Origin: Escherichia coli
GTDB lineage: Bacteria > Pseudomonadota > Gammaproteobacteria > Enterobacterales > Enterobacteriaceae
Strand: one strand, 5' to 3'
Assembly: GCF_013122565.1 (NCBI RefSeq)
Contig: NZ_CP053258.1
Length of the DNA stretch: 64,000 bases
Made by a program: the position numbers and the translations under genes. Positions 4,386 to 44,664 of this stretch are shown piece by piece. The notes beneath the pieces were generated by a model that ran no database searches, was not told where the DNA came from, and saw only the letters and a program-made list of their open reading frames with translations. Numbering within the stretch: the stretch's first letter is position 1; each line of letters begins with the position of its first letter.

Positions 4386-4940
4386 ATGACCCTACGCAAG
4401 ATTCTGGTACTCACCTGCCTGCTGTTGCCGATGATGGCTTCCGCACATCAGTTCGAAACCGGTCAGCGAGTGCCGCCGATTGGCATTACCGATCGTGGCG
4501 AGTTGGTGCTTGATAAAGATCAGTTTAGCTACAAAACCTGGAACAGCGCGCAGTTAGTGGGAAAAGTGCGAGTACTGCAACATATTGCTGGTCGCACCTC
4601 TGCAAAAGAGAAAAACGCGACGCTGATTGAAGCGATTAAATCAGCGAAGTTACCGCACGATCGTTACCAGACCACCACCATTGTTAACACCGACGACGCG
4701 ATTCCGGGTTCCGGCATGTTTGTGCGCAGCAGTCTGGAGAGTAATAAAAAGCTTTATCCCTGGTCGCAGTTTATTGTCGATAGCAATGGCATCGCGCGCG
4801 GTGCCTGGCAGCTGGATGAAGAAAGTTCCGCTGTAGTGGTGCTGGATAAGGATGGTCGCGTGCAATGGGCCAAAGACGGGGCGCTCACTCAGGAAGAGGT
4901 GCAGCAAGTGATGGACCTGCTGCAAAAGTTGCTCAAATAA
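4386..4940 (+). CDS. ytfJ: Periplasmic protein YtfJ
   Basis: 184 aa ORF with N-terminal signal peptide MTLRKILVLTCLLLPMMASA; synteny. Confidence 0.9.
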   Translation: MTLRKILVLTCLLLPMMASAHQFETGQRVPPIGITDRGELVLDKDQFSYKTWNSAQLVGKVRVLQHIAGRTSAKEKNATLIEAIKSAKLPHDRYQTTTIVNTDDAIPGSGMFVRSSLESNKKLYPWSQFIVDSNGIARGAWQLDEESSAVVVLDKDGRVQWAKDGALTQEEVQQVMDLLQKLLK

Positions 4941-5002
4941 TGGCAACAACATAGATTCTGCAAAAATAATATTCCCCTGTCGATACCTATGGGATAGGGG
5001 AA

Positions 5003-5785
5003 TTAAGTGTATGAGTTCTTACGCCGAACTAATACTGGTAACGCTAGTTGCTCTTTTTTAAACGCCTCAATGGTAGATTTATATTTCTCGCAAATCTCCT
5101 CTTCGGTAATATCACTATCTACCGCCAGATTCGCACTTACTATCGCATCCACTTGTTCGGCTAATTCCACTTGTTGGCAACCTGCATTAACCAGAAAATT
5201 ATAAATAAGAGAGTAATCTTCATCCTCCAAAACAACAAAGGAACCATTACGAAAACGTTCATCCCCTCCATAGATTGTAAGCACAGAGCCCAAAGATTCT
5301 ATGACTATGGCAAAATTATCATCAATTATTTTTTCGTAAATATACCATCCATCGCATTCTTTAATTCCACCTCCTGGTATTTGGAGTTCAAATTTACCCC
5401 GTTTTAATTTGCTTACTATATCCTCCAATAAGGCATAACCTAAAGACACGTCACCAAACGCCTGGCGAATATAACCTTTAATCCTTTTCGGTATGTCAGA
5501 CTGTTTTTTCTGTAAAATATCCCAGGCATACAATCTTCTGTTTTGTTCTAACGGAAACTCGCGGTTTTTGAAATCCATGAATGAGTTATACTCATTTATT
5601 GTTATGGGAATTTCTTCGTATTCAAACCCACTGCCTCGCAATGTCATTGTATATTCGGCACCGTTATCTTTAAGGCTGAAACTGATAAGAAACTTATCCA
5701 TGGCGTTAACAGTTTCATTTTTTGATGAAAGTACCTGATAACTATTTTTATCAATCTGAGTTGCGCAACGAAAGAACTCCCTCAA
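5003..5785 (-). CDS. Hypothetical acidic cytoplasmic protein, AT-rich orphan occupying the ytfI position
   Basis: 260 aa ORF starting at TTG (in-frame TAG 8 codons upstream); no recognisable motif; visibly AT-rich coding and flanks; weak ribosome-binding signals. Confidence 0.55.
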   Translation of the reverse strand: MREFFRCATQIDKNSYQVLSSKNETVNAMDKFLISFSLKDNGAEYTMTLRGSGFEYEEIPITINEYNSFMDFKNREFPLEQNRRLYAWDILQKKQSDIPKRIKGYIRQAFGDVSLGYALLEDIVSKLKRGKFELQIPGGGIKECDGWYIYEKIIDDNFAIVIESLGSVLTIYGGDERFRNGSFVVLEDEDYSLIYNFLVNAGCQQVELAEQVDAIVSANLAVDSDITEEEICEKYKSTIEAFKKEQLALPVLVRRKNSYT

Positions 5786-6152
5786 AGTTAAGAGGCTATC
5801 ATAATTCTAAACCCAATCTTTTTCCCTAAATGCATGCTGAATATTATTAAAAAAATTGTTTGAATGTGTTTTTGTATGCGATGATTTTACAAATAACTCC
5901 ACCGCACCAATAAAATTATTGTGTCTGATCCTGGGTAACATATGGCTACCTTATTTTATTTGGTTATTTTATGTCGCCATTAAATATCTCATTATAGAAG
6001 TAAACTATCAAAAAACGCTCATTATTAAAATGTTACTTATTAGCAATTGAATTTTTGCACTTTAAATACAATCTCTTTTTATTTATAACTTTTTAGGTTG
6101 GGAGAAATCAGCATGGCAGAATCAGGAAATACACTGTTTCTGCCATCTGAAT

Positions 6153-6893
6153 TTAGTAAATAGACACTCTGAACCCCGGATTCAGGAACGACTCGCGCGG
6201 AGTGTAATCCAGCGGTTTACCCTGCCAGTCGTGAACGTGCGCTCCGGCAGCTGCAGCCACAGCATGACCGGCGGCGGTGTCCCAAATATTCGTTGGTCCG
6301 AAGCGCGGGTACAGCTGCGCCTGTCCTTCCGCCACCAGGCAGAATTTCAGCGAAGAGCCGATGGACGTGGTCTGATGTTCGCCAAGCTGTTGCAGATACT
6401 CTTTCAGCTCCGCATCTGCATGGGAACGGCTGATAACCACCAGCGGCGGGCGCGCATCGCGGACCTGAATCTGCTTGCGCACACCGCACTCTTCTTTCCA
6501 GGCTTTGCCTTCTGCCGCGCTGTACATTACGTTCATTACCGGCGCATACACCACACCTAAAATCGGTTTGCCGTGGTCGATGAGCGCAATGTTAACGGTG
6601 AATTCGCCATTACGTTTAATAAACTCTTTAGTACCATCCAGCGGGTCTACCAGCCAGTAACGCTGCCAGTGCTGACGGACTTCCCAACCGGGAGGATCTT
6701 CTTCAGAAAGGACCGGAATATCCGGTGTCAGCGTACGTAAACCGTCCATGATAACGGTGTGTGCGGCAATATCCGCTGCCGTTACCGGAGAATTGTCCGC
6801 TTTGCTGACGACGTCCATCGGTTTCGTCCCGTCGTAGACCTGCATAATGGCATCGCCTGCATTCCGTGCAAGCTGGCATACTTGATCTAACAT
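6153..6893 (-). CDS. cysQ: 3'(2'),5'-bisphosphate nucleotidase CysQ
   Basis: 246 aa, inositol-monophosphatase-family motifs ([15 protein letters not shown]); C-terminus ...GFRVSIY. Confidence 0.93.
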
Positions 6894-7082
6894 TTCTCCA
6901 CCTCGTCTCTGTGAGCGGTGTTAACTTATTGTTTTACTTATACCCTATCGTTAATGAATGCGCCAACTGTGATAGTGTCATCATTTTCAAAGCGTAAAAT
7001 TGTGGCATTCTTCACTGTTCTATAAGTAAGACGTTTATTCTCCCTTTTCTTTCGTATTCCCGATGATAAAAGGATGTCCCTG

Positions 7083-9026
7083 ATGATTAAGTTTAGCGCA
7101 ACGCTCCTGGCCACGCTGATTGCCGCCAGTGTGAATGCAGCGACGGTCGATCTGCGTATCATGGAAACCACTGATCTGCATAGCAACATGATGGATTTCG
7201 ATTATTACAAAGACACCGCCACGGAAAAATTCGGACTGGTACGTACGGCAAGCCTGATTAACGATGCCCGCAATGAAGTGAAAAACAGCGTACTGGTCGA
7301 TAACGGCGATTTGATTCAGGGGAGTCCGCTGGCCGATTACATGTCGGCGAAAGGATTAAAAGCAGGTGATATTCACCCGGTCTATAAGGCATTAAATACG
7401 CTGGACTATACCGTCGGCACGCTTGGCAACCATGAGTTTAACTACGGTCTGGATTACCTGAAAAATGCGCTGGCAGGAGCGAAATTTCCTTATGTAAATG
7501 CCAACGTCATTGACGCCAGAACCAAACAGCCAATGTTTACACCGTATTTAATTAAAGATACCGAAGTGGTCGATAAGGACGGAAAAAAACAGACGCTGAA
7601 GATTGGCTATATTGGCGTCGTGCCGCCGCAAATCATGGGCTGGGATAAAGCTAATTTATCCGGGAAAGTGACGGTAAATGATATTACCGAAACCGTGCGC
7701 AAATACGTGCCTGAAATGCGCGAGAAAGGTGCCGATGTTATTGTCGTTCTGGCGCATTCCGGGCTGTCTGCCGATCCGTATAAAGTGATGGCGGAAAACT
7801 CAGTTTATTACCTCAGTGAAATTCCGGGCGTTAACGCCATTATGTTTGGTCATGCTCACGCCGTTTTCCCAGGTAAAGATTTTGCTGATATCGAAGGGGC
7901 TGATATCGCGAAAGGCACGCTGAATGGTGTTCCGGCGGTAATGCCAGGCATGTGGGGCGATCATCTTGGTGTAGTCGACTTACAACTCAGTAATGACAGC
8001 GGTAAATGGCAGGTGACGCAGGCGAAAGCGGAAGCACGACCGATTTACGACATCGCTAATAAAAAATCCCTCGCGGCGGAAGACAGCAAGCTGGTAGAAA
8101 CACTCAAAGCCGATCACGATGCCACACGCCAGTTCGTCAGCAAGCCAATCGGTAAATCTGCCGACAATATGTATAGCTATCTGGCGCTGGTGCAGGACGA
8201 TCCGACCGTGCAGGTGGTGAACAACGCGCAAAAAGCGTATGTCGAGCATTACATTCAGGGCGATCCGGATCTGGCAAAACTGCCGGTGCTTTCAGCTGCC
8301 GCACCGTTTAAAGTTGGTGGTCGCAAAAATGACCCGGCAAGCTATGTGGAAGTGGAAAAAGGCCAGTTGACCTTCCGTAATGCCGCCGATCTTTATCTCT
8401 ATCCCAATACGCTGATTGTGGTGAAAGCCAACGGTAAAGAGGTGAAAGAGTGGCTGGAGTGCTCCGCCGGACAGTTTAACCAGATTGATCCTAACAGCAC
8501 GAAACCACAGTCACTCATCAACTGGGATAGTTTCCGCACCTATAACTTTGATGTGATTGATGGTGTGAATTATCAGATTGATGTTACCCAGCCTGCCCGT
8601 TATGACGGCGAGTGCCAGATGGTTAATGCCAATGCGGAAAGGATTAAGAACCTGACCTTTAATGGCAAGCCGATTGATCCGAACGCCATGTTCCTCGTTG
8701 CCACCAATAACTATCGCGCTTACGGCGGCAAATTTGCTGGTACGGGCGACAGCCATATCGCTTTTGCTTCACCGGATGAGAACCGCTCGGTGCTGGCAGC
8801 TTGGATTGCTGATGAGTCGAAACGTGCGGGGGAAATTCACCCGGCAGCAGATAACAACTGGCGTTTAGCACCGATTGCCGGCGATAAGAAACTGGATATC
8901 CGTTTCGAAACCTCTCCGTCAGATAAAGCCGCAGCGTTTATTAAAGAGAAAGGGCAATATCCGATGAATAAAGTCGCGACCGATGATATCGGGTTTGCGA
9001 TTTATCAGGTGGATTTGAGTAAGTAA
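7083..9026 (+). CDS. cpdB: 2',3'-cyclic-nucleotide 2'-phosphodiesterase / 3'-nucleotidase CpdB
   Basis: 647 aa from [19 protein letters not shown] signal peptide; calcineurin-like metallophosphatase plus 5'-nucleotidase C-terminal region. Confidence 0.93.
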
Positions 9027-9044
9027 AACACTTCTTTTTCGGCC

Positions 9045-9236
9045 TATAAATCATCAACCGCATCCGGCACTTTTGGCGGATGCGCTGCTGGCGCATCTTA
9101 TCCGCCCTACAAGCCATGAACCGTTGACCATATAAGCGCAGCGCATCCGGCTCTTCCTGGCGGAGGCGATGCTGACGCATCTTATCCGCCCTACAAGCCA
9201 TGAACCATAGACCGGATAAGCGCAGCGCATCCGGCA
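9045..9236. repeat. Composite REP/BIME cluster with tandemly duplicated ~85 bp unit
   Basis: Two copies of gatgc(t)g...gcgcatcttatccgccctacaagccatgaacc...ataagcgcagcgcatccggc. Confidence 0.8.
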
Positions 9237-9237
9237 G

Positions 9238-9402
9238 TTATGCCGCACGTTCATCCCGCACCGCTAACACCTCGGGCAAATTCAACTCAATCCAGTCCGC
9301 CAGTGCAGCAACCTTTTCGCTCACCTGCTCGCCCAGCGGCGTGAGGCTGTATTCCACATGCGGCGGCGTTACTGGCGTTGTCCGGCCAATGTTAATAACT
9401 AG
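9238..9402 (-). pseudogene. ytfH: Truncated remnant of HxlR-family regulator ytfH (C-terminal ~45 codons only)
   Basis: Minus-strand frame reads ...PVTPPHVEYSLTPLGEQVSEKVAALADWIELNLPEVLAVRDERAA*; in-frame stop at 9403-9405 leaves at most 54 codons, no N-terminal HTH region. Confidence 0.55.
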
Positions 9403-9500
9403 TTAATTAAAGTGGCATCCTCCCGCATCCTCTCTGATAATGACGGGATGCCGGGAGCAATCATGTCTGCTTCCTGAACTTTCTTCTGACAGATCAATGG

Positions 9501-10502
9501 ATGCCAGTAATGATTAGCGGCGTGCTGTACGCCCTGTTAGCAGGGTTGATGTGGGGGCTTATCTTTGTCGGGCCGTTGATCGTGCCGGAATACCCGGCGA
9601 TGTTGCAGTCGATGGGGCGTTATCTGGCGTTAGGGTTAATTGCGCTACCCATTGCCTGGCTGGGACGCGTGCGTCTGCGTCAGTTGGCGCGTCGCGACTG
9701 GCTTACCGCCTTGATGCTCACCATGATGGGCAACCTTATCTATTACTTCTGCCTTGCCAGTGCCATTCAACGTACTGGCGCGCCTGTTTCCACGATGATT
9801 ATCGGCACCCTGCCGGTGGTCATTCCTGTCTTTGCCAATCTGCTTTATAGCCAGCGCGACGGCAAACTCGCATGGGGAAAACTCGCCCCGGCACTGGTTT
9901 GTATTGGCATCGGCCTGGCGTGTGTGAATGTTGCTGAGTTAAACCACGGACTCCCCGATTTTGACTGGGCACGTTATACCTCTGGCATCGTGCTGGCGTT
10001 AGTTTCCGTGGTCTGCTGGGCGTGGTATGCCCTGCGCAACGCCCGCTGGCTGCGGGAAAATCCCGACAAACATCCGATGATGTGGGCAACGGCGCAGGCG
10101 CTGGTCACGCTGCCGGTTTCTCTCATCGGCTATCTCGTCGCTTGTTACTGGCTGAATACGCAAACGCCGGATTTCACGCTTCCTTTTGGCCCGCGTCCGT
10201 TGGTTTTTATCAGCCTGATGGTCGCAATCGCTATTCTCTGCTCGTGGGTGGGCGCGCTTTGCTGGAATATCGCCAGCCAGCGTTTGCCTACGGTGATCCT
10301 CGGCCCGTTAATCGTGTTTGAGACGCTGGCGGGTTTGCTGTACACCTTTTTGCTACGCCAGCAATTGCCATCGCTGTTAACGTTTAGCGGCATTGCGCTG
10401 TTAGTGATTGGCGTGGTGATTGCGGTTCGGGCGAAGCCGGAGAAACCGTTGAGTGTCACTATTACCGACGTTAACAAACCCACTGCCACGAAAGGGTTAT
10501 AG
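9501..10502 (+). CDS. ytfF: Inner membrane DMT/EamA-family transporter YtfF
   Basis: 333 aa polytopic membrane ORF; synteny immediately upstream of ytfE; exact start uncertain. Confidence 0.85.
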   Translation: MPVMISGVLYALLAGLMWGLIFVGPLIVPEYPAMLQSMGRYLALGLIALPIAWLGRVRLRQLARRDWLTALMLTMMGNLIYYFCLASAIQRTGAPVSTMIIGTLPVVIPVFANLLYSQRDGKLAWGKLAPALVCIGIGLACVNVAELNHGLPDFDWARYTSGIVLALVSVVCWAWYALRNARWLRENPDKHPMMWATAQALVTLPVSLIGYLVACYWLNTQTPDFTLPFGPRPLVFISLMVAIAILCSWVGALCWNIASQRLPTVILGPLIVFETLAGLLYTFLLRQQLPSLLTFSGIALLVIGVVIAVRAKPEKPLSVTITDVNKPTATKGL

Positions 10503-10512
10503 CTTTACCTAA

Positions 10513-10535
10513 AAGATGCATTTAATATGCATCTT
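10513..10535. promoter_or_regulatory. NsrR-type operator upstream of ytfE
   Basis: aagatgcatttaatatgcatctt: 9-bp perfect inverted arms, 27 bp upstream of ytfE start; matches the known NsrR palindrome. Confidence 0.75.
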
Positions 10536-10561
10536 ATATTTTTCACCATGAGGTATCCGCT

Positions 10562-11224
10562 ATGGCTTATCGCGACCAATCTTTAGGGGAACTGGCACTC
10601 GCTATTCCTCGCGCTTCGGCACTGTTTCGTCAATATGATATGGATTACTGCTGCGGCGGTAAGCAAACGCTGGCGCGCGCGGCAGCACGTAAGGAGCTGG
10701 ATGTTGAGGTCATTGAAGCCAAACTGGCAAAGCTTGCAGAACAACCGATTGAGAAAGACTGGCGTAGCGCCCCGCTGGCGGAAATCATCGACCATATCAT
10801 CGTGCGCTACCACGATCGTCACCGCGAACAACTGCCAGAGTTGATCCTGCAAGCTTCTAAAGTCGAGCGCGTTCACGCCGACAAACCGAGCGTGCCAAAA
10901 GGGCTGACAAAATACCTGACCATGCTGCATGAAGAGCTTTCCAGCCACATGATGAAAGAAGAGCAGATCCTCTTCCCGATGATCAAACAAGGCATGGGCA
11001 GCCAGGCGATGGGGCCAATCAGCGTAATGGAAAGCGAGCACGATGAAGCGGGCGAACTGCTGGAAGTGATTAAACACACCACCAATAACGTCACACCGCC
11101 GCCGGAAGCCTGCACCACCTGGAAAGCGATGTATAACGGTATTAATGAATTGATTGATGACCTGATGGAGCACATCAGCCTGGAAAACAATGTGCTGTTC
11201 CCACGCGCGCTGGCTGGTGAGTGA
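10562..11224 (+). CDS. ytfE: Iron-sulfur cluster repair di-iron protein YtfE (RIC)
   Basis: 220 aa; ScdA_N plus hemerythrin-like region (HH..EE motifs); synteny. Confidence 0.93.
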
Positions 11225-11232
11225 TTCGTTCG

Positions 11233-11265
11233 ATCAACGATCCTGACATGTACGGGATCGTTGAT
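11233..11265. terminator. Hairpin between convergent ytfE and downstream repeat-protein gene
   Basis: 11-bp perfect stem atcaacgatcc/ggatcgttgat with 11-nt loop; weak T-tract. Confidence 0.5.
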
Positions 11266-11276
11266 TGTTAAGAGGT

Positions 11277-12770
11277 TCAGTCTTTCAATGGACGTAATTC
11301 ATTGTTGTAACTGGTGTAACTGCCTTCAACGGTAAGTAGATTGCCGTTTTCATCAAGATGCGCCGCATTGAGTTGTCGAGTTTCATTACGCCGCTTCGCA
11401 TCACGAACCAGCCCATCGCCTACGTAATAAATATAGTGGTCATCATGAGCAAAGGTATCTGATAATTGACCATTGGCGTATTTAAACCACGTCCATTGGC
11501 CTTTAAGCTCAAATTTCTCAACCGTGTCTTTATCAATAAAATACGTATAGCGATCGTCATGTGCCAAATAATTTAATGTTGTGCCATCGGGGCTTTTATA
11601 CCACTGCCATTGCCCATTGATATCAAAAATAGTCACATCATCCCTTGCAAGGAAATAAACTTTATTCCCTACAACATTAGCACCTTCCTGTAATTCTTGT
11701 TGCGGGTCTGGTAAATGAATGACCGAAAGCGTTTTTTCGACCGCAGAAATATACTTCACCAGATAGAGCGAATCTTTATATTGCGCCACATTCTTCGTCA
11801 GCGGGCGAAAATATTCCGGATCAACATCAGGAATGGTCGCAACCCGGCAGTCATTGGCACGCCAGGAAGCATCACGCGTCATCCAGGTTACTTTATCCCG
11901 CTGTAGGTCAAATGTATTCCGGCAATCTTTACCGAACGAATAACGTTTCTCCCCGTCCTTATCGCGATAAATCAGCAGGGAACCGGCTATCCAGCGCACA
12001 ATATGAAAGGTGTCCGGATCGGCGTCGATGGCATCTCCGTTCACAAAGACCTGCGATTTTGTCCGCCAGATTGTATCCCAGGGTGCGGGATGCCCCCAAC
12101 TTTCACAACTGTTTGGCAAATAAAGAATATTCCGTTGGGCCCAGGGTTTAATATCAAGAATAGAATATCCTTGGGTACTACCCAACCAGCGTCCCTGAAA
12201 GTAAAGATTGCGACGATCTTTCAGCACATCCGCGGAATCAACTGAATTCATCCTCCCCCCCACCTGTTGCAGCGAATCCATATCGACCTGCTTTTCGCCG
12301 TGATTATCATCCGTGCGTTCGCCGTCAAAATAGAGGCTGTCTTTATCGGCAGCAAAACGCCCCCATGCGCGGAATGTTGCGGCATCGACTTTCGGTGTTC
12401 CCGGCGGGTTCTGAACTATTTTCCCTGCCCATAAAATATGGCGACCATCGGTCAACCAGTCGAAACGCCAACTGCTGTTAGTTCTGATATTAGTGCCAGC
12501 ATCTACCTGAACAAAATCATTATTGATATCATCAGGAGAATCATATTTATCATCAGTGCCGTTGGGTACGCGGCGAAGTTGCTTAAACTTCACCTGCGAT
12601 AAATGAATATCCGGAAAATAGAGTCCGTAACCATCACTATCTTCAACGATATATTTTGTGCCTTGCCCCCACGGCTGGTAGTAAAACGCAGCATAAGGCA
12701 CACCAGAGCAAGCTATTGAAGCGGTTGAAAATAAAGCCAGTGCGAGACAAACAGGTTTAATTGGCAACAT
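11277..12770 (-). CDS. Secreted repeat protein, paralogue A (DKNYY-like repeats), function unknown
   Basis: 497 aa; N-terminal signal peptide MLPIKPVCLALALFSTASIACSG; repeated D-K-x-x-LYF/DA-x-TF blocks; ATG with AGGA RBS. Confidence 0.8.
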   Translation of the reverse strand: MLPIKPVCLALALFSTASIACSGVPYAAFYYQPWGQGTKYIVEDSDGYGLYFPDIHLSQVKFKQLRRVPNGTDDKYDSPDDINNDFVQVDAGTNIRTNSSWRFDWLTDGRHILWAGKIVQNPPGTPKVDAATFRAWGRFAADKDSLYFDGERTDDNHGEKQVDMDSLQQVGGRMNSVDSADVLKDRRNLYFQGRWLGSTQGYSILDIKPWAQRNILYLPNSCESWGHPAPWDTIWRTKSQVFVNGDAIDADPDTFHIVRWIAGSLLIYRDKDGEKRYSFGKDCRNTFDLQRDKVTWMTRDASWRANDCRVATIPDVDPEYFRPLTKNVAQYKDSLYLVKYISAVEKTLSVIHLPDPQQELQEGANVVGNKVYFLARDDVTIFDINGQWQWYKSPDGTTLNYLAHDDRYTYFIDKDTVEKFELKGQWTWFKYANGQLSDTFAHDDHYIYYVGDGLVRDAKRRNETRQLNAAHLDENGNLLTVEGSYTSYNNELRPLKD

Positions 12771-12802
12771 AGCGTCATCCTGAAGCTGTTAGCGTGAAGA
12801 GG

Positions 12803-13960
12803 TTATTTAAATAAGGGTTTAAGACCGCTCGGGGGTTGCTTCACCGATGACCAACCTCCCTTACCTAAGTTATAACGCAGCCATTTACCTTGTTGGACGT
12901 GCTCTTTCCCAACTCCAGTCGCTTGTTGAGTGTAAAGCTGCCCGTCTGTTGATATAAACGTGTTAGTTAATCCCCAACTACCACCTGCTTCAAGTGAGTC
13001 GGTGAGATCCTCTGGCTTGAGATTAATCAACTCCCCTTCGCCCAGGGCGTTGGTTGTGACTTTATAAATTTGGTTCTTATATAAACCGGTATTGCGAACA
13101 AACAGATAAAAATATTCCGGATCAACTCGCGGCAGCGTTTCATAAATACACTCACTGCCCGCTGGAGTGGCTTCATGTTTGAGCCAGGACACGTTATTCA
13201 GACCAATATTAAAAGGTGCACAGCGATAGCTGGTATCCTCCAGCTCATAGTCACGCTCACCGCTTTTATCGCGATAAACTAAGCGTTCGCCAGGCATCCA
13301 GCGGATTATCTGAAAGGTTTTACGATCGGCGGGCAGCGGCTTGCCATTAACAATCACCTGCGAATTTGTCAGCACAACAAATTGCAGGGCGGAATCATGC
13401 CGCACGATTTGAAACCCGTCAGCGCTTCCCAACCAGTGCCCCTTATGCCAAAGACTATTTTTATCACGCAGTAAATTCCAGATGTCCGTCTCTTCAAGCG
13501 TTGACATATCCACCTGCTTATCACCGCTATTATCATCGGTACGCTGACCGTCAAAATAGATACTGCGTTTATCAGCAGCGAAAGCGCCGAATGCCTGAAA
13601 ACTGGCAGCGTCGACTTTAGGTTTACCGGGGGGGTTTTTCAGGACTTTGCCAGACCAAAGGACAGAGCGTCCATCAGTGAGCCAGGCATGCTGGCAATCC
13701 CCCTCGTCATCACAATCGAACTTATCGGGATTAAAATCTGACAGTAACCGGCAATCTTGTTTATTGGTTAAATTGGCAATGCGCCAGAGGCGGGAAAAGT
13801 TAACGTCCAGCAGTTCGGAGAGGATCTCATCTTTTTGCCCCTTCTCTTCGGCAACGTAAACCGTGCCTTTCTCCTGCTGGCGGTAATAAAAATCCGCGCC
13901 CCAGGAAGGTGAAATGGAGAGCGGTAATGCGGTGATTAATAACCAACTTCGCGTAACCAT
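12803..13960 (-). CDS. Secreted repeat protein, paralogue B (DKNYY-like repeats), function unknown
   Basis: Signal peptide MVTRSWLLITALPLSISPSWGA; block WLTDGRSVLWSGKVLKNPPGKPKVDAASF...DKRSIYFDGQRTDDNSGDKQVDM nearly identical to paralogue A; start placed at ATG 13960 (track ORF starts at TTG 13984). Confidence 0.75.
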   Translation of the reverse strand: MVTRSWLLITALPLSISPSWGADFYYRQQEKGTVYVAEEKGQKDEILSELLDVNFSRLWRIANLTNKQDCRLLSDFNPDKFDCDDEGDCQHAWLTDGRSVLWSGKVLKNPPGKPKVDAASFQAFGAFAADKRSIYFDGQRTDDNSGDKQVDMSTLEETDIWNLLRDKNSLWHKGHWLGSADGFQIVRHDSALQFVVLTNSQVIVNGKPLPADRKTFQIIRWMPGERLVYRDKSGERDYELEDTSYRCAPFNIGLNNVSWLKHEATPAGSECIYETLPRVDPEYFYLFVRNTGLYKNQIYKVTTNALGEGELINLKPEDLTDSLEAGGSWGLTNTFISTDGQLYTQQATGVGKEHVQQGKWLRYNLGKGGWSSVKQPPSGLKPLFK

Positions 13961-14079
13961 AGTGATCTCTGAAATGAGTGGCAAAGATCCACAGTAAGTC
14001 CGCGCCTGGGGGGATGTCGATGACGGTAAGTTTTTTTAGGAATGTATAAAGACAAAGGAGATTGCTGACAAAGTGAGCT

Positions 14080-14190
<111 letters not shown>

Positions 14191-14226
14191 TGCGCCTGAA
14201 AGACACCCGCAGGTGCCTTAGCGGCA

Positions 14227-15630
14227 TTACTTCGCCATGCGTTTTTTACCAATAAACAACCAGCCCAGCCCCAACGCGATAAACCACAGCGGGGTGACCA
14301 GCAGCGCCTGGCGGGTATCATCTTCCAGCGTCAGCAGCACGATCACAAACACAAAGAACGCCATGCATACCCAGCACATCAGCTTGCCGAGCGGCATCTT
14401 GTAGATCGACTTCTCATGCAGATGAGGACGCTGTTTGCGATACACCAGGTACGAGCAAAGGATAATCGTCCAGACGAACATAAACAGAATCGCGGAAACG
14501 GTTGTAATCATCGTGAACGCGCCAATCACGCTAGGATTCACATACAACATCACCACGCCGCCGAGCAGACAGATACACGAGAAGGTCAATCCTTTCGCGG
14601 GTACTGCGCGCTTAGAAAGTTTAGCGAACGCTTTCGGCGCAACACCTTCCTGCGCCAGACCAAACAGCATACGGCTGGTAGAGAAGACACCGCTGTTAGC
14701 GGAAGACGCCGCAGAGGTCAGCACCACAAAGTTGATCACGCTGGCAGCCGCAGGCAAACCTACCAACACAAACAGTTCAACAAACGGGCTTTTCTCCGGG
14801 ACTACCGAACTCCACGGCGTCACGGACATAATCACAATCAGCGCGAAGACGTAGAACATAATGATACGGATCGGAATGGAGTTAATCGCGCGTGGCAGTG
14901 ATTTCTCTGGATCTTTGGTTTCCGCAGCTGTTGTACCTACCAGCTCAATCCCCACGAAAGCGAAAACCGCTATCTGGAATCCGGCAAAGAAGCCACTTAA
15001 ACCTTTCGGGAACCAGCCGCCGTCATTCCACAAATGCGCGAATGACGCTTCCACACCAGTCGGTGACTGAAAGTGCATCGCCACCATGACCAGGCCGACG
15101 ACAATCAGCGACACAATGGCGACGATTTTGATCATCGCAAACCAGAACTCCATCTCACCGAACATTTTCACGGTGGCGAGGTTAAGCGTCAGCAGCAGCA
15201 CTATCACCGCCAGCGAGGCGACCCAGTCGGAGAGATCGGGGAACCAGAACTGAGCATAAGCCGTGATCGCCACCACGTCTGCCATACCGGTTACAACCCA
15301 GCAGAACCAGTAAGTCCAGCCGGTGAAATATCCTGCCCACGGCCCGAGTAAATCGGAAGCGAAGTCACTAAAAGATTTGTATTCCAGATTCGAAAGCAGC
15401 AATTCCCCCATTGCCCGCATCACGAAAAAGAGCATAAAACCAATGATCATATAAACGAAAATGATCGACGGCCCGGCAAGGCTAATCGTTTTGCCAGACC
15501 CCATAAACAACCCCGTACCAATGGCACCGCCAATGGCAATAAGCTGAATATGTCGGTTTGTGAGATTGCGCCGTAGCGACTGTTCAGCCGGAGCCTGATC
15601 ATCGGCAACGACTTTTACCTGATCTACCAT
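14227..15630 (-). CDS. cycA: D-serine/D-alanine/glycine transporter CycA (APC family)
   Basis: 467 aa ORF MVDQVKVVADDQAPAEQSLRRNLTNRHIQLIAIGGAIGTGLFMGSGK... Confidence 0.93.
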   Translation of the reverse strand: MVDQVKVVADDQAPAEQSLRRNLTNRHIQLIAIGGAIGTGLFMGSGKTISLAGPSIIFVYMIIGFMLFFVMRAMGELLLSNLEYKSFSDFASDLLGPWAGYFTGWTYWFCWVVTGMADVVAITAYAQFWFPDLSDWVASLAVIVLLLTLNLATVKMFGEMEFWFAMIKIVAIVSLIVVGLVMVAMHFQSPTGVEASFAHLWNDGGWFPKGLSGFFAGFQIAVFAFVGIELVGTTAAETKDPEKSLPRAINSIPIRIIMFYVFALIVIMSVTPWSSVVPEKSPFVELFVLVGLPAAASVINFVVLTSAASSANSGVFSTSRMLFGLAQEGVAPKAFAKLSKRAVPAKGLTFSCICLLGGVVMLYVNPSVIGAFTMITTVSAILFMFVWTIILCSYLVYRKQRPHLHEKSIYKMPLGKLMCWVCMAFFVFVIVLLTLEDDTRQALLVTPLWFIALGLGWLFIGKKRMAK

Positions 15631-15938
15631 GTTTTTTTCTTCCTGTACCTGTCTGTGTTGTTCAGGCTCTACGGCCTTTAGTCAGTCTATGATACGACGA
15701 ATCTGTATCGGGACTCATCGATATTAGGTAACAATACGCGGGATGAATACTAAGATTTAGATCTAATGTTAATTTTATGTTTAAAGTGAGTGTCATATCA
15801 CGGTGATAACGCGAAACAGCTCACAAAAATACACGCTTACGGGGTCTTTGCAACACAAAATAGCGCCGTTTGGCAAACTGAAGGGTTTATTGCTGAATGC
15901 CTGCTCCCCTCTGGTTCGAGGGGAACAGAATGCGCTGC

Positions 15939-16559
15939 TTAGAGGATTTCCAGCAGTTCGACTTCAAACACCAGGGTGCTGAACGGAGGGATGGATGCGC
16001 CTGCACCGCGCTCGCCATATGCCAGTTCCTGCGGGATAGTCAGTTCCCATTTAGAACCTACCGGCATCAGAGTCAGTGCTTCAATCCAGCCAGGGATCAC
16101 GCCATTAACCGGAAATTCAGCGGGTTCACCACGAGCAACGGAGCTGTCAAACACGGTGCCGTCGATCAGTTTACCGGTGTAATGAACACGAACGCGGTCG
16201 GTACGTGCCGGAATTGCGCCTTCACCCTGGTTGATCACGCGGAATTGCAGGCCAGATTCGGTGCTATTCACACCTTCTTTTTTGGCGTTTTCTTCCAGGT
16301 ATTTCACACCTTCAGCAGCCATCGCCTGGAAACGCTGACGACGAACGGCATCGGCGCGCTCGTGGATTTCACGCAGCGCGCGATGCACCACATCAACCGG
16401 AACAGCCGGATGTTTGCCTTCCAGCGCATCGGCAATACCTGCAACCAGTGCTTCTGGCAGCAGCCCTTCCAGGCCAGATTCACTCAGTTGTTGCCCTACC
16501 TGCAAACCAATGCCGTAGCTTGCTTGCGCTTCGATGGTGTCAAAAGTTGGGGTGGTCAT
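15939..16559 (-). CDS. fklB: FKBP-type peptidyl-prolyl cis-trans isomerase FklB
   Basis: 206 aa from [25 protein letters not shown]; FKBP C-terminal domain. Confidence 0.92.
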
Positions 16560-17428: not shown

Positions 17429-18064
17429 TCACATGCATGGGGTCACAAGGAGCCAGCTTAAAAGCGTCTCCTTGATAACCTTATGTCTGTTCTCCAAAGC
17501 CTCAGGAGATATCATACTGATGTGATAAACCAACCCTAAAGTATGTTGGTTAAGAATATAATATCCAGCAAGAGCGGCAAGGCTAATGTTTACCTGTAAT
17601 GGATCTATATCTTGCTTAAAGATATTTTGTTTTTTTCCTTCATCAAGCAACCTTTCCATAATCTCTAAATGCGAGTGGTTAATTTCGGGCAAACGAGTTG
17701 ATTTCTTGTAGTGCTCCCCTCGACTTTGGTTTTCGGAATGAATTATCTTTAAAAACCAAGGATTCTTCACATAATAATCCCACGTAAAATCAATAAATTT
17801 TTCAATGGATTGCAATGGGTTTAGTCCAGTAAAGTCCAGATCTCTTTCTTTTTGCCGGATGTCATTACACGTATATTCAAGGACTTCAATAAACAAATTC
17901 TCTTTATTACCAAAATGATGATAAACAGTCTGCTTACTACAACCGGCTGCTTTAACAATATTATCGACCCTGGCACCTTCATAGCCATACTCTGCAAATT
18001 CATTGATAGCGCACAGTAATAATTTTTCTTTCAAAATTTGCACTTTACTAGTATCAAAATACAT
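17429..18064 (-). CDS. TetR/AcrR-family transcriptional regulator
   Basis: N-terminal TetR HTH ([28 protein letters not shown]); AT-rich; start placed at ATG 18064 with GAGGG RBS (track ORF begins at GTG 18070). Confidence 0.85.
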
Positions 18065-18430
18065 CTTCACCCCTCACACTAATCTTGCCAACCTATTATA
18101 TACTCTTTTACCGCGTGACCACGCACATTTTTCATACAAAAATCATCATTATCTTACAGAGCATTAAACCTACTTACATTGTTTCGTTACTGTGAAACAG
18201 ACAGAAAATTTTTCCTTGATGCATATTTGTTAAAAATGGAATATGGCTTTAATTAATTATATTCATATAATGAATATTTAACTATAAATAATTAATTCCA
18301 TTTATTTTCAAAGAGTTATAATTTTAAATATGATCTCCCTCACGAATCAACCAACTAGATGGTTGGTTCAAATAAAATCTATAGGCATCTTTGTCTCCAT
18401 GATGAATCCTGTATTTAAAGAGGTCCAAAA

Positions 18431-19222
18431 ATGAAATCAAAAAAACCCGTTGCTATTATTACCGGTGCTGCCCGTGGTATCGGTAAAGGTTGTGCTATTG
18501 AACTAGCTCGCGCTGGATTTAATCTTCTAATAAATGATCGACCAGATAAAGACAGCATCGAAAAACTTAAAGCAACTCAAAAACTATGTATCGCTGAAGG
18601 TGTTGAAGTCATAACGTTTCCAGCCAACATTGGCGATTTAACGTTACATGAAAAGATGCTCGACGCGGCGCAAAATCAGTGGGAGCGTTTGGACTGCCTG
18701 CTCAATAACGCCGGAATTTCGGTGAAAAAGCGTGGTGATATTCTCGACCTGGAGCCAGACAGTTTCGACGATAACATTGCCATCAATACCCGCGCACCTT
18801 TCTTCCTCGCCCAGGCTTTCAGCAAGCGCCTGTTGGCGCAACCCAAACCAGAAGCTGAACTACCGCATCGCTCAATTATTTTTGTCAGCTCAATTAACGC
18901 CATCATGCTGGCGATGAATCGAGGTGAGTACACCATTGCCAAAACAGCTGTATCTGCCGCTGCCCGCCTGTTTGCCGCACGTCTTTGTGAAGAGCAAATT
19001 GGCGTTTATGAAATCCGCCCAGGTTTAATCAAAACCGATATGACTATTCCAGCAACAGCTTATTACGACGAACTGATCGCTAAGGGGTTAGTGCCATGGG
19101 GTCGTTGGGGTTTTCCACAGGACATCGCCTCCACTGTCCGTGCAATGGCGGAAGGCAAACTGATTTACACCTGTGGTCAGGCGGTCGCCATCGACGGCGG
19201 CTTAAGTATGCCACGCTTCTGA
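18431..19222 (+). CDS. Short-chain dehydrogenase/reductase (SDR) family oxidoreductase
   Basis: TGAARGIGKG nucleotide-binding motif, NNAG, catalytic Y-x3-K (YTIAK). Confidence 0.88.
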   Translation: MKSKKPVAIITGAARGIGKGCAIELARAGFNLLINDRPDKDSIEKLKATQKLCIAEGVEVITFPANIGDLTLHEKMLDAAQNQWERLDCLLNNAGISVKKRGDILDLEPDSFDDNIAINTRAPFFLAQAFSKRLLAQPKPEAELPHRSIIFVSSINAIMLAMNRGEYTIAKTAVSAAARLFAARLCEEQIGVYEIRPGLIKTDMTIPATAYYDELIAKGLVPWGRWGFPQDIASTVRAMAEGKLIYTCGQAVAIDGGLSMPRF

Positions 19223-19231
19223 GGCTGAACC

Positions 19232-20074
19232 ATGAGAGATCTGTTACATCGCCCGGATTTATTCAGCATCAATACCGCGACGCTGGGCTATAAAATGCCT
19301 CTGCCCGCCCTTATTGATGCTTGTGCCGCACGCGGCATCGGTGCGATTGCCCCCTGGCGCAGAGAGTTGCAGAGCGAAGATCTTCAGCAAATCGTCCGCC
19401 AGCTTGCCGCCAATAACATGAGCGTTTCTGGTTTATGCCGTAGCACCTACTACACCGCGCCGACGCTGGCAGAGCGCAAGCTGGCGATTGATGATAACCG
19501 CCGGGCGCTGGACGACGCAGCGATGCTGAACGCCGCCTGTTATATGCAGGTGGTTGGCGGTCTGCCAACGGGCACTAAAGATCTGTATGAAGCGCGGGAG
19601 CAAGTGAAAGAAGGGGTTCGCCAGTTGCTGTCACATTCGAAAGATGTCGGCGTGCCGATTGCACTGGAGCCACTGCACCCGATGACTGCTGCCGATCGCT
19701 CTTGCCTCTGCTCGCTACGTCAGGCGCTGGACTGGTGTGATGAACTCGATCCCGATGGTGAGTTTGGCCTCGGCGTGGCGGTCGATGTCTACCACGTCTG
19801 GTGGGATCCGGATCTCACCAGTCAGATCCTGCGCGCTGGAAAACGGATCCTCGCGTTTCATGTTTCCGACTGGCTGGTGCCGACGACCGATCTGGTCAAT
19901 GATCGGGGAATGCCGGGAGATGGCGTCATCAATATTCCGTCAATTCGTCGGCTGGTTGAAAACGCCGGATTTAATGGTTCTATCGAATTAGAAATATTTT
20001 CTTCATTCTGGTGGGAAAAGAATATCAACCAAATACTGGATAAAAGTATTAACGGACTTTCTTATTATTGTTAA
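19232..20074 (+). CDS. Sugar phosphate isomerase/epimerase-like TIM-barrel protein (xylose isomerase-like fold)
   Basis: 280 aa; family assignment by overall pattern only; 9 bp after SDR stop. Confidence 0.6.
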   Translation: MRDLLHRPDLFSINTATLGYKMPLPALIDACAARGIGAIAPWRRELQSEDLQQIVRQLAANNMSVSGLCRSTYYTAPTLAERKLAIDDNRRALDDAAMLNAACYMQVVGGLPTGTKDLYEAREQVKEGVRQLLSHSKDVGVPIALEPLHPMTAADRSCLCSLRQALDWCDELDPDGEFGLGVAVDVYHVWWDPDLTSQILRAGKRILAFHVSDWLVPTTDLVNDRGMPGDGVINIPSIRRLVENAGFNGSIELEIFSSFWWEKNINQILDKSINGLSYYC

Positions 20075-20223
20075 ACATCACACTATATTTTTCTCTCGAA
20101 ATTAGTTGATTGTTTAAATTTGCATGTTTTAGAAAGTTATGAGTGAAGTAATAAATCAATAAATTAAATATCTTACAGAGCATTGCGAGTGTTAGGTATT
20201 TATAATCAAATAGGGATTGGCAT

Positions 20224-23834: not shown

Positions 23835-23937
23835 ACGCCTTTTAAATCGGTAGCTATTAAATAAATATTTTATGATTTGCAAAATTCACGCTTTTACATT
23901 GTGAGTATTTTCTATTGATAATATCAAAGGTTTAATC

Positions 23938-25218: not shown

Positions 25219-25269
25219 TTTTTATTTTTACCTATAGAATTTTAATCGAAAAAAAATAAAGGAAAGATT

Positions 25270-25749
25270 ATGTCTCAAACAGAAATTATTCTTCCTTCAG
25301 GAAGAGAACTTACTCCAGGTGAATATGGTTATGCCAATCTGGAACCTGGCGATCACTACCAGACTCCCGGTCTTAACGTAACAGAGTCACAGATTGTTGC
25401 TTTTGCGGGGATAAGCGGTGATTTTTTCGATGTTCATATGGATGATGAATTTGCAAGGGAAAAAGGATTTCCAGGACGCATTGCCCACGGTCTGTTAGGT
25501 TTAGCATTGACGGACGGCCTGAAGAATCGTTCTATTGTACGTTTACGTGCAGTTGCTACATTAAACTGGAACTGGTCATTCTGTGCACCATTATTGCCTG
25601 GAGATCATATTCACGCCGTTATTACTGTTGTTAAAAAACGCCCCACCAAACGTGAAGACCGAGGCATTGTGACTTTTGCTTTACAATTGTTTAATCAACA
25701 TGGAAAGATAATACAGCGAGGCGAAACTCTGCTGATGATGATGCAATAA
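25270..25749 (+). CDS. MaoC-like (hot-dog fold) dehydratase / enoyl-CoA hydratase
   Basis: 159 aa; GRIAHGLLGLALTDGL hot-dog motif; AGGAAA RBS. Confidence 0.8.
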   Translation: MSQTEIILPSGRELTPGEYGYANLEPGDHYQTPGLNVTESQIVAFAGISGDFFDVHMDDEFAREKGFPGRIAHGLLGLALTDGLKNRSIVRLRAVATLNWNWSFCAPLLPGDHIHAVITVVKKRPTKREDRGIVTFALQLFNQHGKIIQRGETLLMMMQ

Positions 25750-25760
25750 TCTGAGTTTGA

Positions 25761-25797
25761 AATACGTACCAACGAGTATGCTGGTACGTATTTCTTC
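25761..25797. terminator. Intrinsic terminator between convergent catabolic operon and HipA-like gene
   Basis: 10-bp perfect stem aatacgtacc/ggtacgtatt, 12-nt loop, followed by tttcttc. Confidence 0.65.
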
Positions 25798-25868
25798 GCA
25801 AACGCACTGTTTATGCTCTCTCCCTCATAATGACTGTTTCATCTAACTAATATTTCTAAATAACTGTC

Positions 25869-27137: not shown

Positions 27138-27150
27138 AATTAATTTCCTT

Positions 27151-27642: not shown

Positions 27643-27663
27643 AGTGATAATATTTTATCTTTT

Positions 27664-44580: not shown

Positions 44581-44664
44581 CTATTAAGAAGAACCAAAAA
44601 TTTAACGCTATGCATACGATAAAAAATGCGCCAGTCTACATACACTGACGCTAATGATTAGTCA

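What the first reader, a model, noticed from the sequence alone, without database searches (positions are those of the whole stretch)
9238..9500. Apparent deletion: ytfH reduced to a C-terminal stub and qorB (ytfG) missing
After the REP cluster following cpdB, the minus strand encodes only the last ~45 codons of an HxlR-family protein (...PPHVEYSLTPLGEQ...LAVRDERAA*), closed by an in-frame stop 54 codons upstream. ytfF then starts ~100 bp further on. In K-12 as I recall it, full-length ytfH (126 aa) and divergent qorB (286 aa, quinone oxidoreductase) lie between cpdB and ytfF. About 1.1 kb therefore appears to be missing, removing a regulator and its probable target.
Basis: inference. Interest (0 to 1): 0.5.

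Follow-up and report, generated by a model that had tools for sequence, protein, structure and literature searches.

The report
Old ytfH–qorB deletion shared with E. albertii
This E. coli strain really lacks about 1.17 kb that removes the quinone reductase gene qorB and most of its neighbouring regulator gene ytfH; the same deletion scar is found in every Escherichia albertii sequence examined and in only about 0.1% of complete E. coli genomes, so it is an inherited rare allele, not an error.

Summary

- **The deletion.** Between cpdB/REP and ytfF the window keeps only the last 42 codons and stop of ytfH (9238-9367, minus strand). Next come 20 nt of unassignable sequence (9368-9387), then the last 15 bp of qorB and the intact 107-bp qorB-ytfF spacer (9388-9509). 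Against K-12, 1185 bp are replaced by 20 bp. The lost DNA covers ytfH codons 1-83, both divergent promoters and 846 of the 861 bp of qorB.
- **Background.** The window is ordinary E. coli, 98-99.9% identical to K-12 in most 1-kb bins. It holds no second copy of either gene.
- **Not an artefact.** The same junction occurs in 6 of 5,426 complete E. coli genomes and in a read-level Logan contig that is 100% identical.
- **Shared with E. albertii.** All 8 E. albertii-type loci retrieved carry the junction, including the type strain and TW07627.
- **Transfer between species.** Two of the E. coli carriers hold the junction inside a tract 99% identical to E. albertii, which shows the junction on E. 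albertii-type DNA inside E. coli chromosomes. The window and four other genomes carry it in E. coli-type flanks, and their 20-nt patch differs from the E. albertii patch at 5 of 20 positions. They are therefore not a recent copy of the sampled E. albertii allele.

Verdict: a real, rare, probably old null allele, of modest interest.

The parts
7074..9026 (+). cpdB, intact; the left neighbour of the locus
   Evidence: 650-aa ORF. It is 97-98% identical to K-12 cpdB.
9027..9237 (.). REP/BIME cluster between cpdB and the ytfH remnant. The 84-nt unit is present twice here; K-12 has one copy.
   Evidence: Direct repeats at 9074-9151 and 9158-9235, 91% identical to each other. Alignment to K-12 shows one unit missing there. 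Weak, sub-threshold naRNA4/REP-type Rfam matches.
9238..9367 (-). ytfH 3' remnant: stop codon, codons 85-126 and one base of codon 84. It has no promoter, no start codon and no N-terminal winged-helix part, so it is a pseudogene.
   Evidence: Aligns to K-12 L001 4256-4385. In the 135-nt left-flank alignment, which ends at the junction, the window differs from K-12 at 2 sites. Pfam HxlR positions 53-89/91, E 2.8e-8. PGAP annotates the same remnant in carrier genomes as 'incomplete; missing N-terminus'.
9368..9387 (.). 20-nt junction patch GTTACTGGCGTTGTCCGGCC that stands in for 1185 bp of K-12. It is either filler DNA or a heavily mutated relic of ytfH codons 77-84.
   Evidence: No significant similarity to the deleted DNA on either strand. 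Unique in the window. It does not encode the YPVV that is invariant in all but three of the about 70 intact YtfH, which differ there by one residue. Homologous patches occur in Ec-U9-1 (2 differences) and in E. albertii (5 differences).
9388..9402 (+). Last 15 bp of qorB (AAT GTT AAT AAC TAG = N V N N stop), all that remains of the gene
   Evidence: Aligns to K-12 L001 5571-5585, the end of the qorB CDS at 4725-5585.
9403..9509 (+). Intact qorB-ytfF spacer. It holds an imperfect palindrome (9385-9416, which starts at the right breakpoint) and two promoter-like sites upstream of ytfF.
   Evidence: Window 9388-9509 is identical to K-12 L001 5571-5692. Palindrome I2. Promoter-like sites at 9412-9441 and 9486-9514, consensus matches only.
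9510..10502 (+). ytfF (DMT/EamA transporter), intact. After the deletion it lies in tandem with cpdB. Its 3' third is an unusually divergent allele.
   Evidence: ORF. NCBIfam/EamA match. The 5' 500 bp are about 98% identical to K-12, and 10000-10750 is only about 83% identical to any E. coli.

Best explanation
What it is: a genuine chromosomal deletion allele of the cpdB-ytfF interval in an otherwise ordinary E. coli.

The event (shown): one event removed ytfH codons 1-83, the 88-bp divergent ytfH/qorB promoter region and all but the last 15 bp of qorB. It left a promoterless ytfH 3' remnant, a 20-nt scar, and the untouched qorB-ytfF spacer.

Consequence (inferred from the anatomy):
- The allele is null for the HxlR-type regulator YtfH, because its DNA-binding N-terminal part is gone.
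- It is null for the NAD(P)H:quinone oxidoreductase QorB.
- ytfF keeps its own upstream region. It loses any read-through from the qorB promoter, and it now lies downstream of cpdB on the same strand.

Origin (inferred):
- The event did not happen in this strain. The scar is identical by descent with the arrangement found in every E. albertii locus examined.
- The allele has crossed between E. albertii and E. coli by homologous recombination. Two E. coli genomes carry the junction on E. albertii-type DNA, next to ordinary E. coli sequence.
- In the lineage of the window, the flanks have since been replaced by E. coli sequence right up to the scar, or the donor was an unsampled relative.
- The result is a rare, probably old, tolerated loss-of-function polymorphism.
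For: **Breakpoints and content**
- Mapped.
- The remnant belongs to the HxlR family. QorB of K-12 is the solved YtfG protein 2ZCU/2ZCV.

**Real, not an artefact**
- The same junction is in 6 of 5,426 complete genomes.
- Logan contig SRR11451224_175 is 100% identical over window 9177-14113.

**The window is E. coli**
- 98-99.9% identical to K-12 in most 1-kb bins.

**Shared descent with E. albertii**
- The left and right breakpoints are the same to the nucleotide.
- The patch has the same length and 15 of 20 bases are identical.
- It is present in NBRC 107761, TW07627, GCA_048985605.1 and four Logan contigs.
- Metagenome contig L099 carries it; a second contig, the mosaic L100, also does.

**Ancestral state is intact**
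- About 70 Enterobacteriaceae species representatives have full-length ytfH with PVV-PPHVEY conserved. These include E. whittamii, two other Escherichia-level lineages, Salmonella, Citrobacter and Klebsiella.
- The deleted 1185 bp are present in 5,410 of 5,426 E. coli genomes.

**Transfer between species**
- In SCPM-O-B-9504 the ytfE-ytfJ region is 99% identical to E. albertii. About 21 kb further on stay at 85-94% identity to K-12.
- In the same genome, mtfA-zinT and the adjacent uxuR-gntP are about 100% E. coli.

**E. coli-type carriers**
- The flanks are 98-99% K-12-like on both sides, up to the patch.
- The YtfF allele of Ec-U9-1 is very common. In all 9 distinct contexts shown for it, ytfH-qorB is intact. 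The scar therefore sits in ordinary E. coli haplotypes.
- At least three different flanking haplotypes carry it: the window, HCP4S3_I4 and Ec-U9-1.
Against: - The direction and date of transfer are not established.
- The E. coli-type patch differs from the E. albertii patch at 5 of 20 positions, and from Ec-U9-1 at 2 of 20. That is too many for a recent import from the sampled E. albertii, and 20 nt are too few to date anything.
- No clearly E. albertii-derived SNP tract survives next to the junction in the window. Introgression is therefore inferred for the window, not shown.
- The E. albertii sample is small and biased. Seven loci were retrieved through one identical YtfF protein. 'Fixed in E. 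albertii' is not proven.
- The origin of the 20 nt is unresolved.
- The functional consequences for quinone handling and ytfF expression are untested.
- That YtfH regulates qorB is an assumption.
Confidence: 0.8

Rival explanations
1. Assembly or sequencing artefact: a collapse or mis-join removed ytfH-qorB from the assembly, while the strain has the genes.
For: Only the general possibility. A REP cluster lies 130 bp to the left.
Against: - The identical junction is found in 6 independently assembled complete genomes, in E. albertii genomes from different projects and in 2 metagenome contigs.
- A Logan read assembly is 100% identical across the junction.
- The deleted segment is not flanked by repeats longer than 4 nt.
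- The 20-nt patch is not what a collapse would produce.
Confidence: 0.02
2. Recurrent, independent deletions at a hot spot: the same deletion arose separately in E. coli and in E. albertii, for instance through slippage between short TTAA repeats next to the palindrome at the qorB stop codon.
For: - The flanks of the E. coli-type allele are pure E. coli.
- The patches differ at 5 of 20 positions.
- The E. albertii junction can be read as a join at a 4-nt TTAA microhomology: K-12 ...ACGGTTAA|GAAAA and ...TTTTTAA|TGTTAAT.
- The right breakpoint abuts an imperfect palindrome.
Against: - Independent events would not share both breakpoints to the nucleotide and also a 20-nt stretch of equal length that is 75% identical. 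That stretch is unlike the intact ytfH sequence found in all other taxa.
- No other junction type was seen among the genomes that cover the interval in one piece.
Confidence: 0.07
3. Recent direct import from E. albertii into this strain, as in the SCPM-O-B strains.
For: Such imports exist. SCPM-O-B-9504 and -7615 carry the junction inside DNA 99% identical to E. albertii. Metagenome contig L100 is an E. coli/E. albertii mosaic at cpdB.
Against: - In the window the ytfH remnant is 98.5% identical to K-12 (2 differences in the 135-nt left-flank alignment), against 13 differences for E. albertii in the same alignment.
- The first 600 bp to the right are about 98% K-12-like and 90-94% E. albertii-like.
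- The patch differs from all 9 E. albertii-type copies at 5 of 20 positions.
Confidence: 0.04
4. Ancient trans-species polymorphism: the deletion predates, or dates from near, the E. coli / E. albertii split. It has persisted at low frequency in E. coli, with its flanks homogenised by recombination up to the edge of the non-homologous scar.
For: - Patch divergence between the two species' alleles is 5/20 (25%). This lies in the range of the neighbouring sequence: 14/122 in the qorB-ytfF spacer, clustered as 14/40 in its variable part, and 13/135 in the remnant.
- Two of 20 patch positions differ within E. coli.
- At least three flanking haplotypes carry the allele.
Against: - A neutral or mildly harmful allele at about 0.1% frequency is not expected to be that old.
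- With only 20 nt, the interval on divergence is very wide.
- An unsampled donor lineage explains the same data.
- This overlaps with the main explanation, differing only in timing.
Confidence: 0.15

Closest known systems
Intact cpdB-ytfH-qorB-ytfF locus of E. coli K-12 (BW2952/MG1655)
   Same: Same gene order and the same flanks: cysQ, cpdB, REP, the ytfH 3' end, the qorB-ytfF spacer, ytfF and ytfE. The flanks are 98-99% identical.
   Different: K-12 has 1185 bp (ytfH codons 1-83, the promoter region and qorB) where the window has 20 nt. K-12 has one REP unit and the window has two.
cpdB-ytfF interval of Escherichia albertii (type strain NBRC 107761, TW07627 and others)
   Same: The same two breakpoints, the same 54-codon remnant frame and a 20-nt patch of the same length with 15/20 identical bases. 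qorB is absent.
   Different: - The E. albertii flanks are only 87-94% identical to the window.
- The patch differs at 5 positions.
- E. albertii keeps the TTAA at the right end of the patch, where the window has CCAA.
E. coli complete genomes with the same junction (HCP4S3_I4; Ec-U9-1, Ec-U10, Ec-U14-2; SCPM-O-B-9504, -7615)
   Same: The same junction. RefSeq annotates the remnant as a winged-helix regulator pseudogene missing its N-terminus. HCP4S3_I4 has a patch identical to the window's.
   Different: - None is the window's strain. cpdB and ytfF haplotypes differ.
- None has the window's divergent ytfF 3' end.
- The SCPM strains carry the junction inside an E. albertii-like tract.
HxlR/DUF24-type regulator divergently paired with an NAD(P)H quinone oxidoreductase, e.g. 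QorR-qor2 of Corynebacterium glutamicum (recalled from memory, not checked here)
   Same: The K-12 ytfH/qorB pair has this architecture: an HxlR-family gene and an NmrA-type quinone reductase, transcribed divergently from an 88-bp spacer.
   Different: In the window the whole module is destroyed. Regulation of qorB by YtfH has not been demonstrated, and YtfH is listed as a transcription factor of unknown function (PMC9308461).

Membership tests
ytfH (HxlR-family winged-helix regulator, Pfam PF01638) | Sequence match to the HxlR domain | tested here: met
   The 54-aa remnant frame matches PF01638 model positions 53-89 of 91, E 2.8e-8. Residues 85-126 are identical to K-12 YtfH.
ytfH (HxlR-family winged-helix regulator, Pfam PF01638) | Complete domain with the N-terminal helix-turn-helix (model positions 1-52), a start codon and a promoter, i.e. 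a functional gene | tested here: not met
   Homology to ytfH stops at window 9367, inside codon 84. A stop closes the frame 11 codons further up. The 88-bp promoter region is deleted. RefSeq calls the same remnant a pseudogene.
ytfH (HxlR-family winged-helix regulator, Pfam PF01638) | Orthologous position: convergent with cpdB, directly after the REP cluster | tested here: met
   Window 9142-9367 aligns collinearly to K-12 L001 4160-4385.
qorB / ytfG (NmrA-type NAD(P)H:quinone oxidoreductase, PDB 2ZCU) | Presence of the coding sequence | tested here: not met
   Only the last 15 bp remain. tblastn with K-12 QorB finds nothing in 64 kb better than E 1.6.
Deletion allele identical by descent with the E. 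albertii arrangement | Same left and right breakpoints | tested here: met
   Alignment and pattern extraction across the window, 3 E. coli carriers (L002-L004) and the E. albertii-type loci L006, L088-L094, L099 and L100.
Deletion allele identical by descent with the E. albertii arrangement | Homologous junction patch | tested here: met
   Same length of 20 nt, and 15/20 bases identical to all E. albertii copies. The patch is unlike the intact ytfH of about 70 species.
Deletion allele identical by descent with the E. albertii arrangement | E. albertii-derived flanking SNPs next to the junction in the window | tested here: not met
   The flanks are E. coli-type up to the patch. This lowers 'recent import', not shared descent of the scar.
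Microhomology-mediated simple deletion | Junction explained by a short direct repeat, with nothing inserted | tested here: inconclusive
   - In the E. albertii-type junction the deletion can be placed at a TTAA present on both sides in K-12.
- That reading requires the 20 nt to be a mutated ytfH relic with a 3-nt loss.
- Similarity of the patch to the adjacent ytfH sequence is not significant (P 0.14 to 0.7).
IS- or transposon-mediated deletion | IS remnant, inverted repeats or target-site duplication at the junction | tested here: not met
   Every base of 9238-9509 except the 20-nt patch aligns to K-12. No IS-like repeat is present.

The most novel reading that the evidence does not exclude
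The scar is a trans-species allele. A single ancient deletion is fixed in E. albertii and has been maintained, or repeatedly re-seeded, at very low frequency in E. coli for a time comparable to the age of the species split. Its flanks have been overwritten by recombination up to the 20-nt non-homologous patch.

If so, the patch is a rare nucleotide-level tracer of old E. coli / E. albertii gene flow. Loss of the YtfH-QorB quinone-reductase module may then be favoured in some shared niche rather than merely tolerated.
Probability: 0.12. Interest if true: 0.5.

Novelty: new member of a known kind. Interest (0 to 1): 0.28.

Why it matters
On its own this is a small loss-of-function polymorphism in two poorly studied genes, and it changes nothing fundamental. 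It is useful in three modest ways.

- **A natural double knockout.** It removes ytfH and qorB in wild E. coli, and apparently across E. albertii. These genes are present in 99.7% of complete E. coli genomes and throughout the Enterobacteriaceae. The module is therefore dispensable, and ready-made strains exist for asking what it does.
- **A junction marker.** The 45-nt junction separates E. albertii-type from E. coli-type DNA at this locus. It exposes E. coli / E. albertii hybrid segments, as in the SCPM-O-B strains and one metagenome contig.
- **An annotation caution.** The remnant should be annotated as a pseudogene, not 'corrected' as an assembly error.

Tried and rejected
- **Source of the 20-nt patch.** I looked in the deleted K-12 DNA on both strands with a shuffle control, in the K-12 locus and in the whole window with up to 3 mismatches. 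No source was found.
- **Patch as a natural divergent ytfH allele.** Rejected. About 70 species keep ...NR[VI][SA]YPVVPPHVEY almost unchanged, with single-residue variants in three.
- **Window as a non-coli Escherichia.** An early search gave 93% identity over 24 kb. Rejected: that figure comes from accessory blocks and a few divergent patches, and most 1-kb bins are 98-99.9% K-12-like.
- **SCPM-O-B-9504 as a mislabelled E. albertii.** Rejected. Two other loci in that genome are about 100% E. coli.
- **Counting carriers through the 39-aa remnant ORF.** The window-type peptide is not on record, and the E. albertii-type peptide is recorded once, so this is not informative.
- **Sampling more contexts through common YtfE and YtfF alleles.** Only intact loci came back.
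- **REP unit comparison as a sign of E. albertii ancestry in the left flank.** Uninformative, because all units are 91-96% alike. One fuzzy-regex script timed out.
- **Rfam scan of 8800-9700.** Only sub-threshold REP-type matches, and nothing at the junction.
- **Literature.** No paper was found on loss of ytfH or qorB in E. albertii or E. coli.
- **Donor of the divergent ytfF 3' end.** None found.

Full report
**What is in the sequence**

- cysQ lies at 6153-6893 on the minus strand, and cpdB at 7074-9026 on the plus strand.
- A REP/BIME cluster follows, with an 84-nt unit present twice, at 9074-9151 and 9158-9235.
- From 9238 the minus strand reads ...N*LVINIGRTTPVTPPHVEYSLTPLGEQVSEKVAALADWIELNLPEVLAVRDERAA*, a 54-codon frame between stops.
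- This frame matches Pfam HxlR (PF01638) model positions 53-89 of 91, E 2.8e-8. It matches K-12 YtfH residues 82-126 at 97.8% identity.
- ytfF opens at 9501. The K-12-equivalent start is 9510.

**Breakpoints**

In K-12 BW2952 the interval holds ytfH (381 bp, minus strand), an 88-bp divergent spacer, qorB (861 bp, plus strand) and a 107-bp spacer before ytfF.

blastn gives two collinear alignments:
- Window 9142-9367 aligns to K-12 locus L001 4160-4385.
- Window 9388-10600 aligns to L001 5571-6804.

So 1185 bp of K-12 are replaced by 20 nt (9368-9387, GTTACTGGCGTTGTCCGGCC), a net loss of 1165 bp.

What is lost:
- ytfH codons 1-83 and two bases of codon 84, which include the whole helix-turn-helix part.
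- Both promoters.
- 846 of the 861 bp of qorB.

What is kept:
- ytfH codons 85-126 and the stop codon.
- The last 15 bp of qorB.
- A qorB-ytfF spacer identical to K-12.

There is no second copy of either gene in the 64 kb. K-12 QorB is the solved protein YtfG, PDB 2ZCU/2ZCV. YtfH's closest solved relatives are 1YYV and HxlR.

**Background**

An early search suggested only 93% identity to E. coli over 24 kb. A bin-by-bin comparison with 95 kb of K-12 shows otherwise:
- Most 1-kb bins are 98-99.9% identical.
- Three blocks are absent from K-12: 11.2-14.2 kb, 17.8-28.0 kb and 44.6-49.7 kb.
- A few patches are divergent.

The window is E. coli.

**Is it real, and how common is it?**

- The deleted 1185 bp are present in 5,410 of 5,426 complete RefSeq E. 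coli genomes.
- A query spanning the junction is covered in one place in only 6 genomes. They are HCP4S3_I4 (pig, UK), Ec-U9-1, Ec-U10 and Ec-U14-2 (urine, Burkina Faso; the last two have equal chromosome length), and SCPM-O-B-9504 and -7615 (Russia).
- RefSeq annotates the remnant there as a winged-helix regulator pseudogene missing its N-terminus.
- The alignment shows the same two breakpoints and a homologous 20-nt patch in all of them.
- A Logan read assembly (SRR11451224, contig 175) is 100% identical to window 9177-14113, junction included.
- No repeat longer than 4 nt flanks the lost segment.

Assembly collapse is therefore not a serious option.

**Link to Escherichia albertii**

A scan of one genome per GTDB species with the window's YtfF returned 80 loci.
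- About 70 Enterobacteriaceae representatives have a full-length ytfH with the motif ...NR[VI][SA]YPVVPPHVEYSLT almost invariant. These include E. whittamii, two further Escherichia-level lineages, Salmonella, Citrobacter, Enterobacter and Klebsiella.
- The E. albertii type strain is the exception. It has the same 54-codon remnant running straight into ytfF.
- Looking up the E. albertii YtfF protein gave TW07627, a third NCBI assembly and four Logan contigs. All have cpdB, the remnant and ytfF, and none has qorB.
- A scan of JGI metagenomes for a degenerate junction pattern found two more contigs with the junction, one E. albertii-like throughout and one a mosaic.
- Every one of these E. albertii-type copies has the patch GTTACCAGCGATGCCCGGTT.

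The deletion is thus typical of E. albertii as far as sampled. Its junction is the same as in the window: identical breakpoints, equal patch length and 15 of 20 patch bases identical. Independent events would not reproduce that.

**Transfer between species**

- In SCPM-O-B-9504 the region from ytfE to ytfJ is 99% identical to E. albertii. The next roughly 21 kb stay at 85-94% identity to K-12.
- In the same genome, mtfA-zinT is 100% identical to ordinary E. coli. So is uxuR-gntP, which lies just across an IS1 pair from the tract.
- This is an E. coli chromosome with a large E. albertii-type segment that contains the junction.
- Metagenome contig L100 is another mosaic. Its cpdB is 95.7% K-12-like, and from the remnant onwards it is 98.7% E. 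albertii-like.

**The window's own allele is different**

- Its flanks are E. coli-type up to the patch on both sides. In the 135-nt left-flank alignment the window differs from K-12 at 2 sites and E. albertii at 13. The first 600 bp on the right are about 98% K-12-like.
- Its patch differs from the E. albertii patch at 5 of 20 positions. It is identical to that of HCP4S3_I4 and differs from Ec-U9-1 at 2 of 20.
- The window, HCP4S3_I4 and Ec-U9-1 have different cpdB and ytfF haplotypes.
- The YtfF allele of Ec-U9-1 is very common. In all 9 distinct contexts shown for it, ytfH-qorB is intact.

So the scar sits in several ordinary E. coli haplotypes. It is not a recent copy of the sampled E. albertii allele: five differences in 20 nt would be very improbable at 1-2% divergence. 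Two readings remain:
- The allele entered E. coli long ago, and recombination with intact E. coli DNA replaced the flanks up to the edge of the non-homologous patch.
- The donor was a relative not sampled here.

For scale, patch divergence is 25%. The two species differ at 14 of 122 positions in the adjacent spacer, all within a 40-nt stretch, and at 13 of 135 in the remnant. With 20 nt no dating is possible.

**Origin of the 20 nt**

- They show no significant similarity to the deleted DNA on either strand (shuffle P 0.11-0.9).
- They have no second copy in the window.
- They do not encode the conserved YPVV.
- Read in frame, the E. albertii version (NRASLVT) loosely resembles K-12 NRIAYPVV with one codon missing. 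The junction can then be placed at a TTAA present on both sides in K-12. This would make the event a 1162-bp microhomology deletion with clustered mutations next to it. The similarity is not significant (P 0.14), so I leave this open.
- The right breakpoint lies at the left edge of an imperfect palindrome, at 9385-9416, that spans the qorB stop codon.
- There is no IS remnant. Every other base of 9238-9509 aligns to K-12.

**Consequences (inferred, not tested)**

- The allele is null for YtfH and QorB.
- ytfF keeps its complete K-12-type upstream spacer with two promoter-like consensus matches. It loses any transcription coming from the qorB promoter. It now lies on the same strand as cpdB, 483 bp downstream, with only REP elements and the antisense remnant between them.
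- That YtfH controls qorB is a reasonable guess from the divergent arrangement. From memory, the QorR-qor2 pair of Corynebacterium is a similar HxlR/DUF24-oxidoreductase pair.
- I found no experimental evidence for that link. YtfH is listed among E. coli transcription factors of unknown function (PMC9308461).
- No paper on loss of these genes in E. albertii or E. coli turned up.

**Verdict**

- This is a real, rare (about 0.1% of complete E. coli genomes) and probably old loss-of-function allele. Its scar is shared by descent with E. albertii, and it has moved between the two species.
- It is a new example of a familiar kind of event, with modest interest. Its main uses are as a natural ytfH-qorB knockout and as a junction marker of E. 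coli / E. albertii gene flow.

Noticed in passing
window 10000-10750 (ytfF 3' third, spacer, ytfE 5' end): - This patch is only about 83% identical to every one of 5,416 complete E. coli genomes, and equally distant from the E. albertii, E. whittamii and other Escherichia loci.
- YtfF is 330 aa with a different C-terminal tail; K-12 has 321 aa.
- The exact protein is on record in a single Logan contig. No closer relative was found among 5.8 billion protein clusters.
- The donor lineage is unknown.
   Followed up: partly
window 11277-12770 (-) and 12803-13984 (-): Two hypothetical genes (497 and 393 aa, one with a faint DKNYY hit) lie between ytfE and cycA. They are absent from K-12. A single match covering at least 80% of window 6000-16000, the stretch that holds them, was found in 267 of 5,426 complete genomes, e.g. 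IAI39 and CE10. Relatives also occur in the E. albertii and E. whittamii loci.
   Followed up: partly
window 9074-9235: The 84-nt REP/BIME unit after cpdB is duplicated in the window and in the E. albertii-type SCPM-O-B-9504 locus. It is single in K-12, HCP4S3_I4 and Ec-U9-1. The units are too alike to tell ancestry.
   Followed up: partly
window 9385-9416: An imperfect palindrome, GCCAATGTTAATAACTAGTTAATTAAAGTGGC, spans the qorB stop codon just upstream of ytfF. From window 9388 onward it is identical in K-12 and E. albertii; its first three bases lie in the junction patch and are not shared with K-12. The right deletion breakpoint lies at its left edge. It could be an operator or terminator-like element, or it could have favoured the break.
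   Followed up: no
L096 (E. coli SCPM-O-B-9504, NZ_CP144930.1 4376000-4406000): This E. coli chromosome carries a tract of at least 30 kb, from ytfE to cybC, that is 85-94% identical to K-12. The first 9 kb are 99% identical to E. albertii. On one side the tract is bounded by an IS1 pair next to about 100% E. coli uxuR-gntP DNA. This looks like an E. coli / E. albertii hybrid segment joined to a rearrangement.
   Followed up: partly
L100 (metagenome contig OASX01001734.1): A mosaic locus: cpdB is 95.7% K-12-like, and from the ytfH remnant onwards it is 98.7% E. albertii-like, with the E. albertii-type junction.
   Followed up: no
window 17800-28000 and 44600-49700: Two blocks have no counterpart in the K-12 region. 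Where other E. coli genomes match window 16000-40000, the annotated products include a CoA transferase, FAD-binding proteins and an MFS transporter. The ula region (30-35 kb) is only 94-96% identical to K-12.
   Followed up: no
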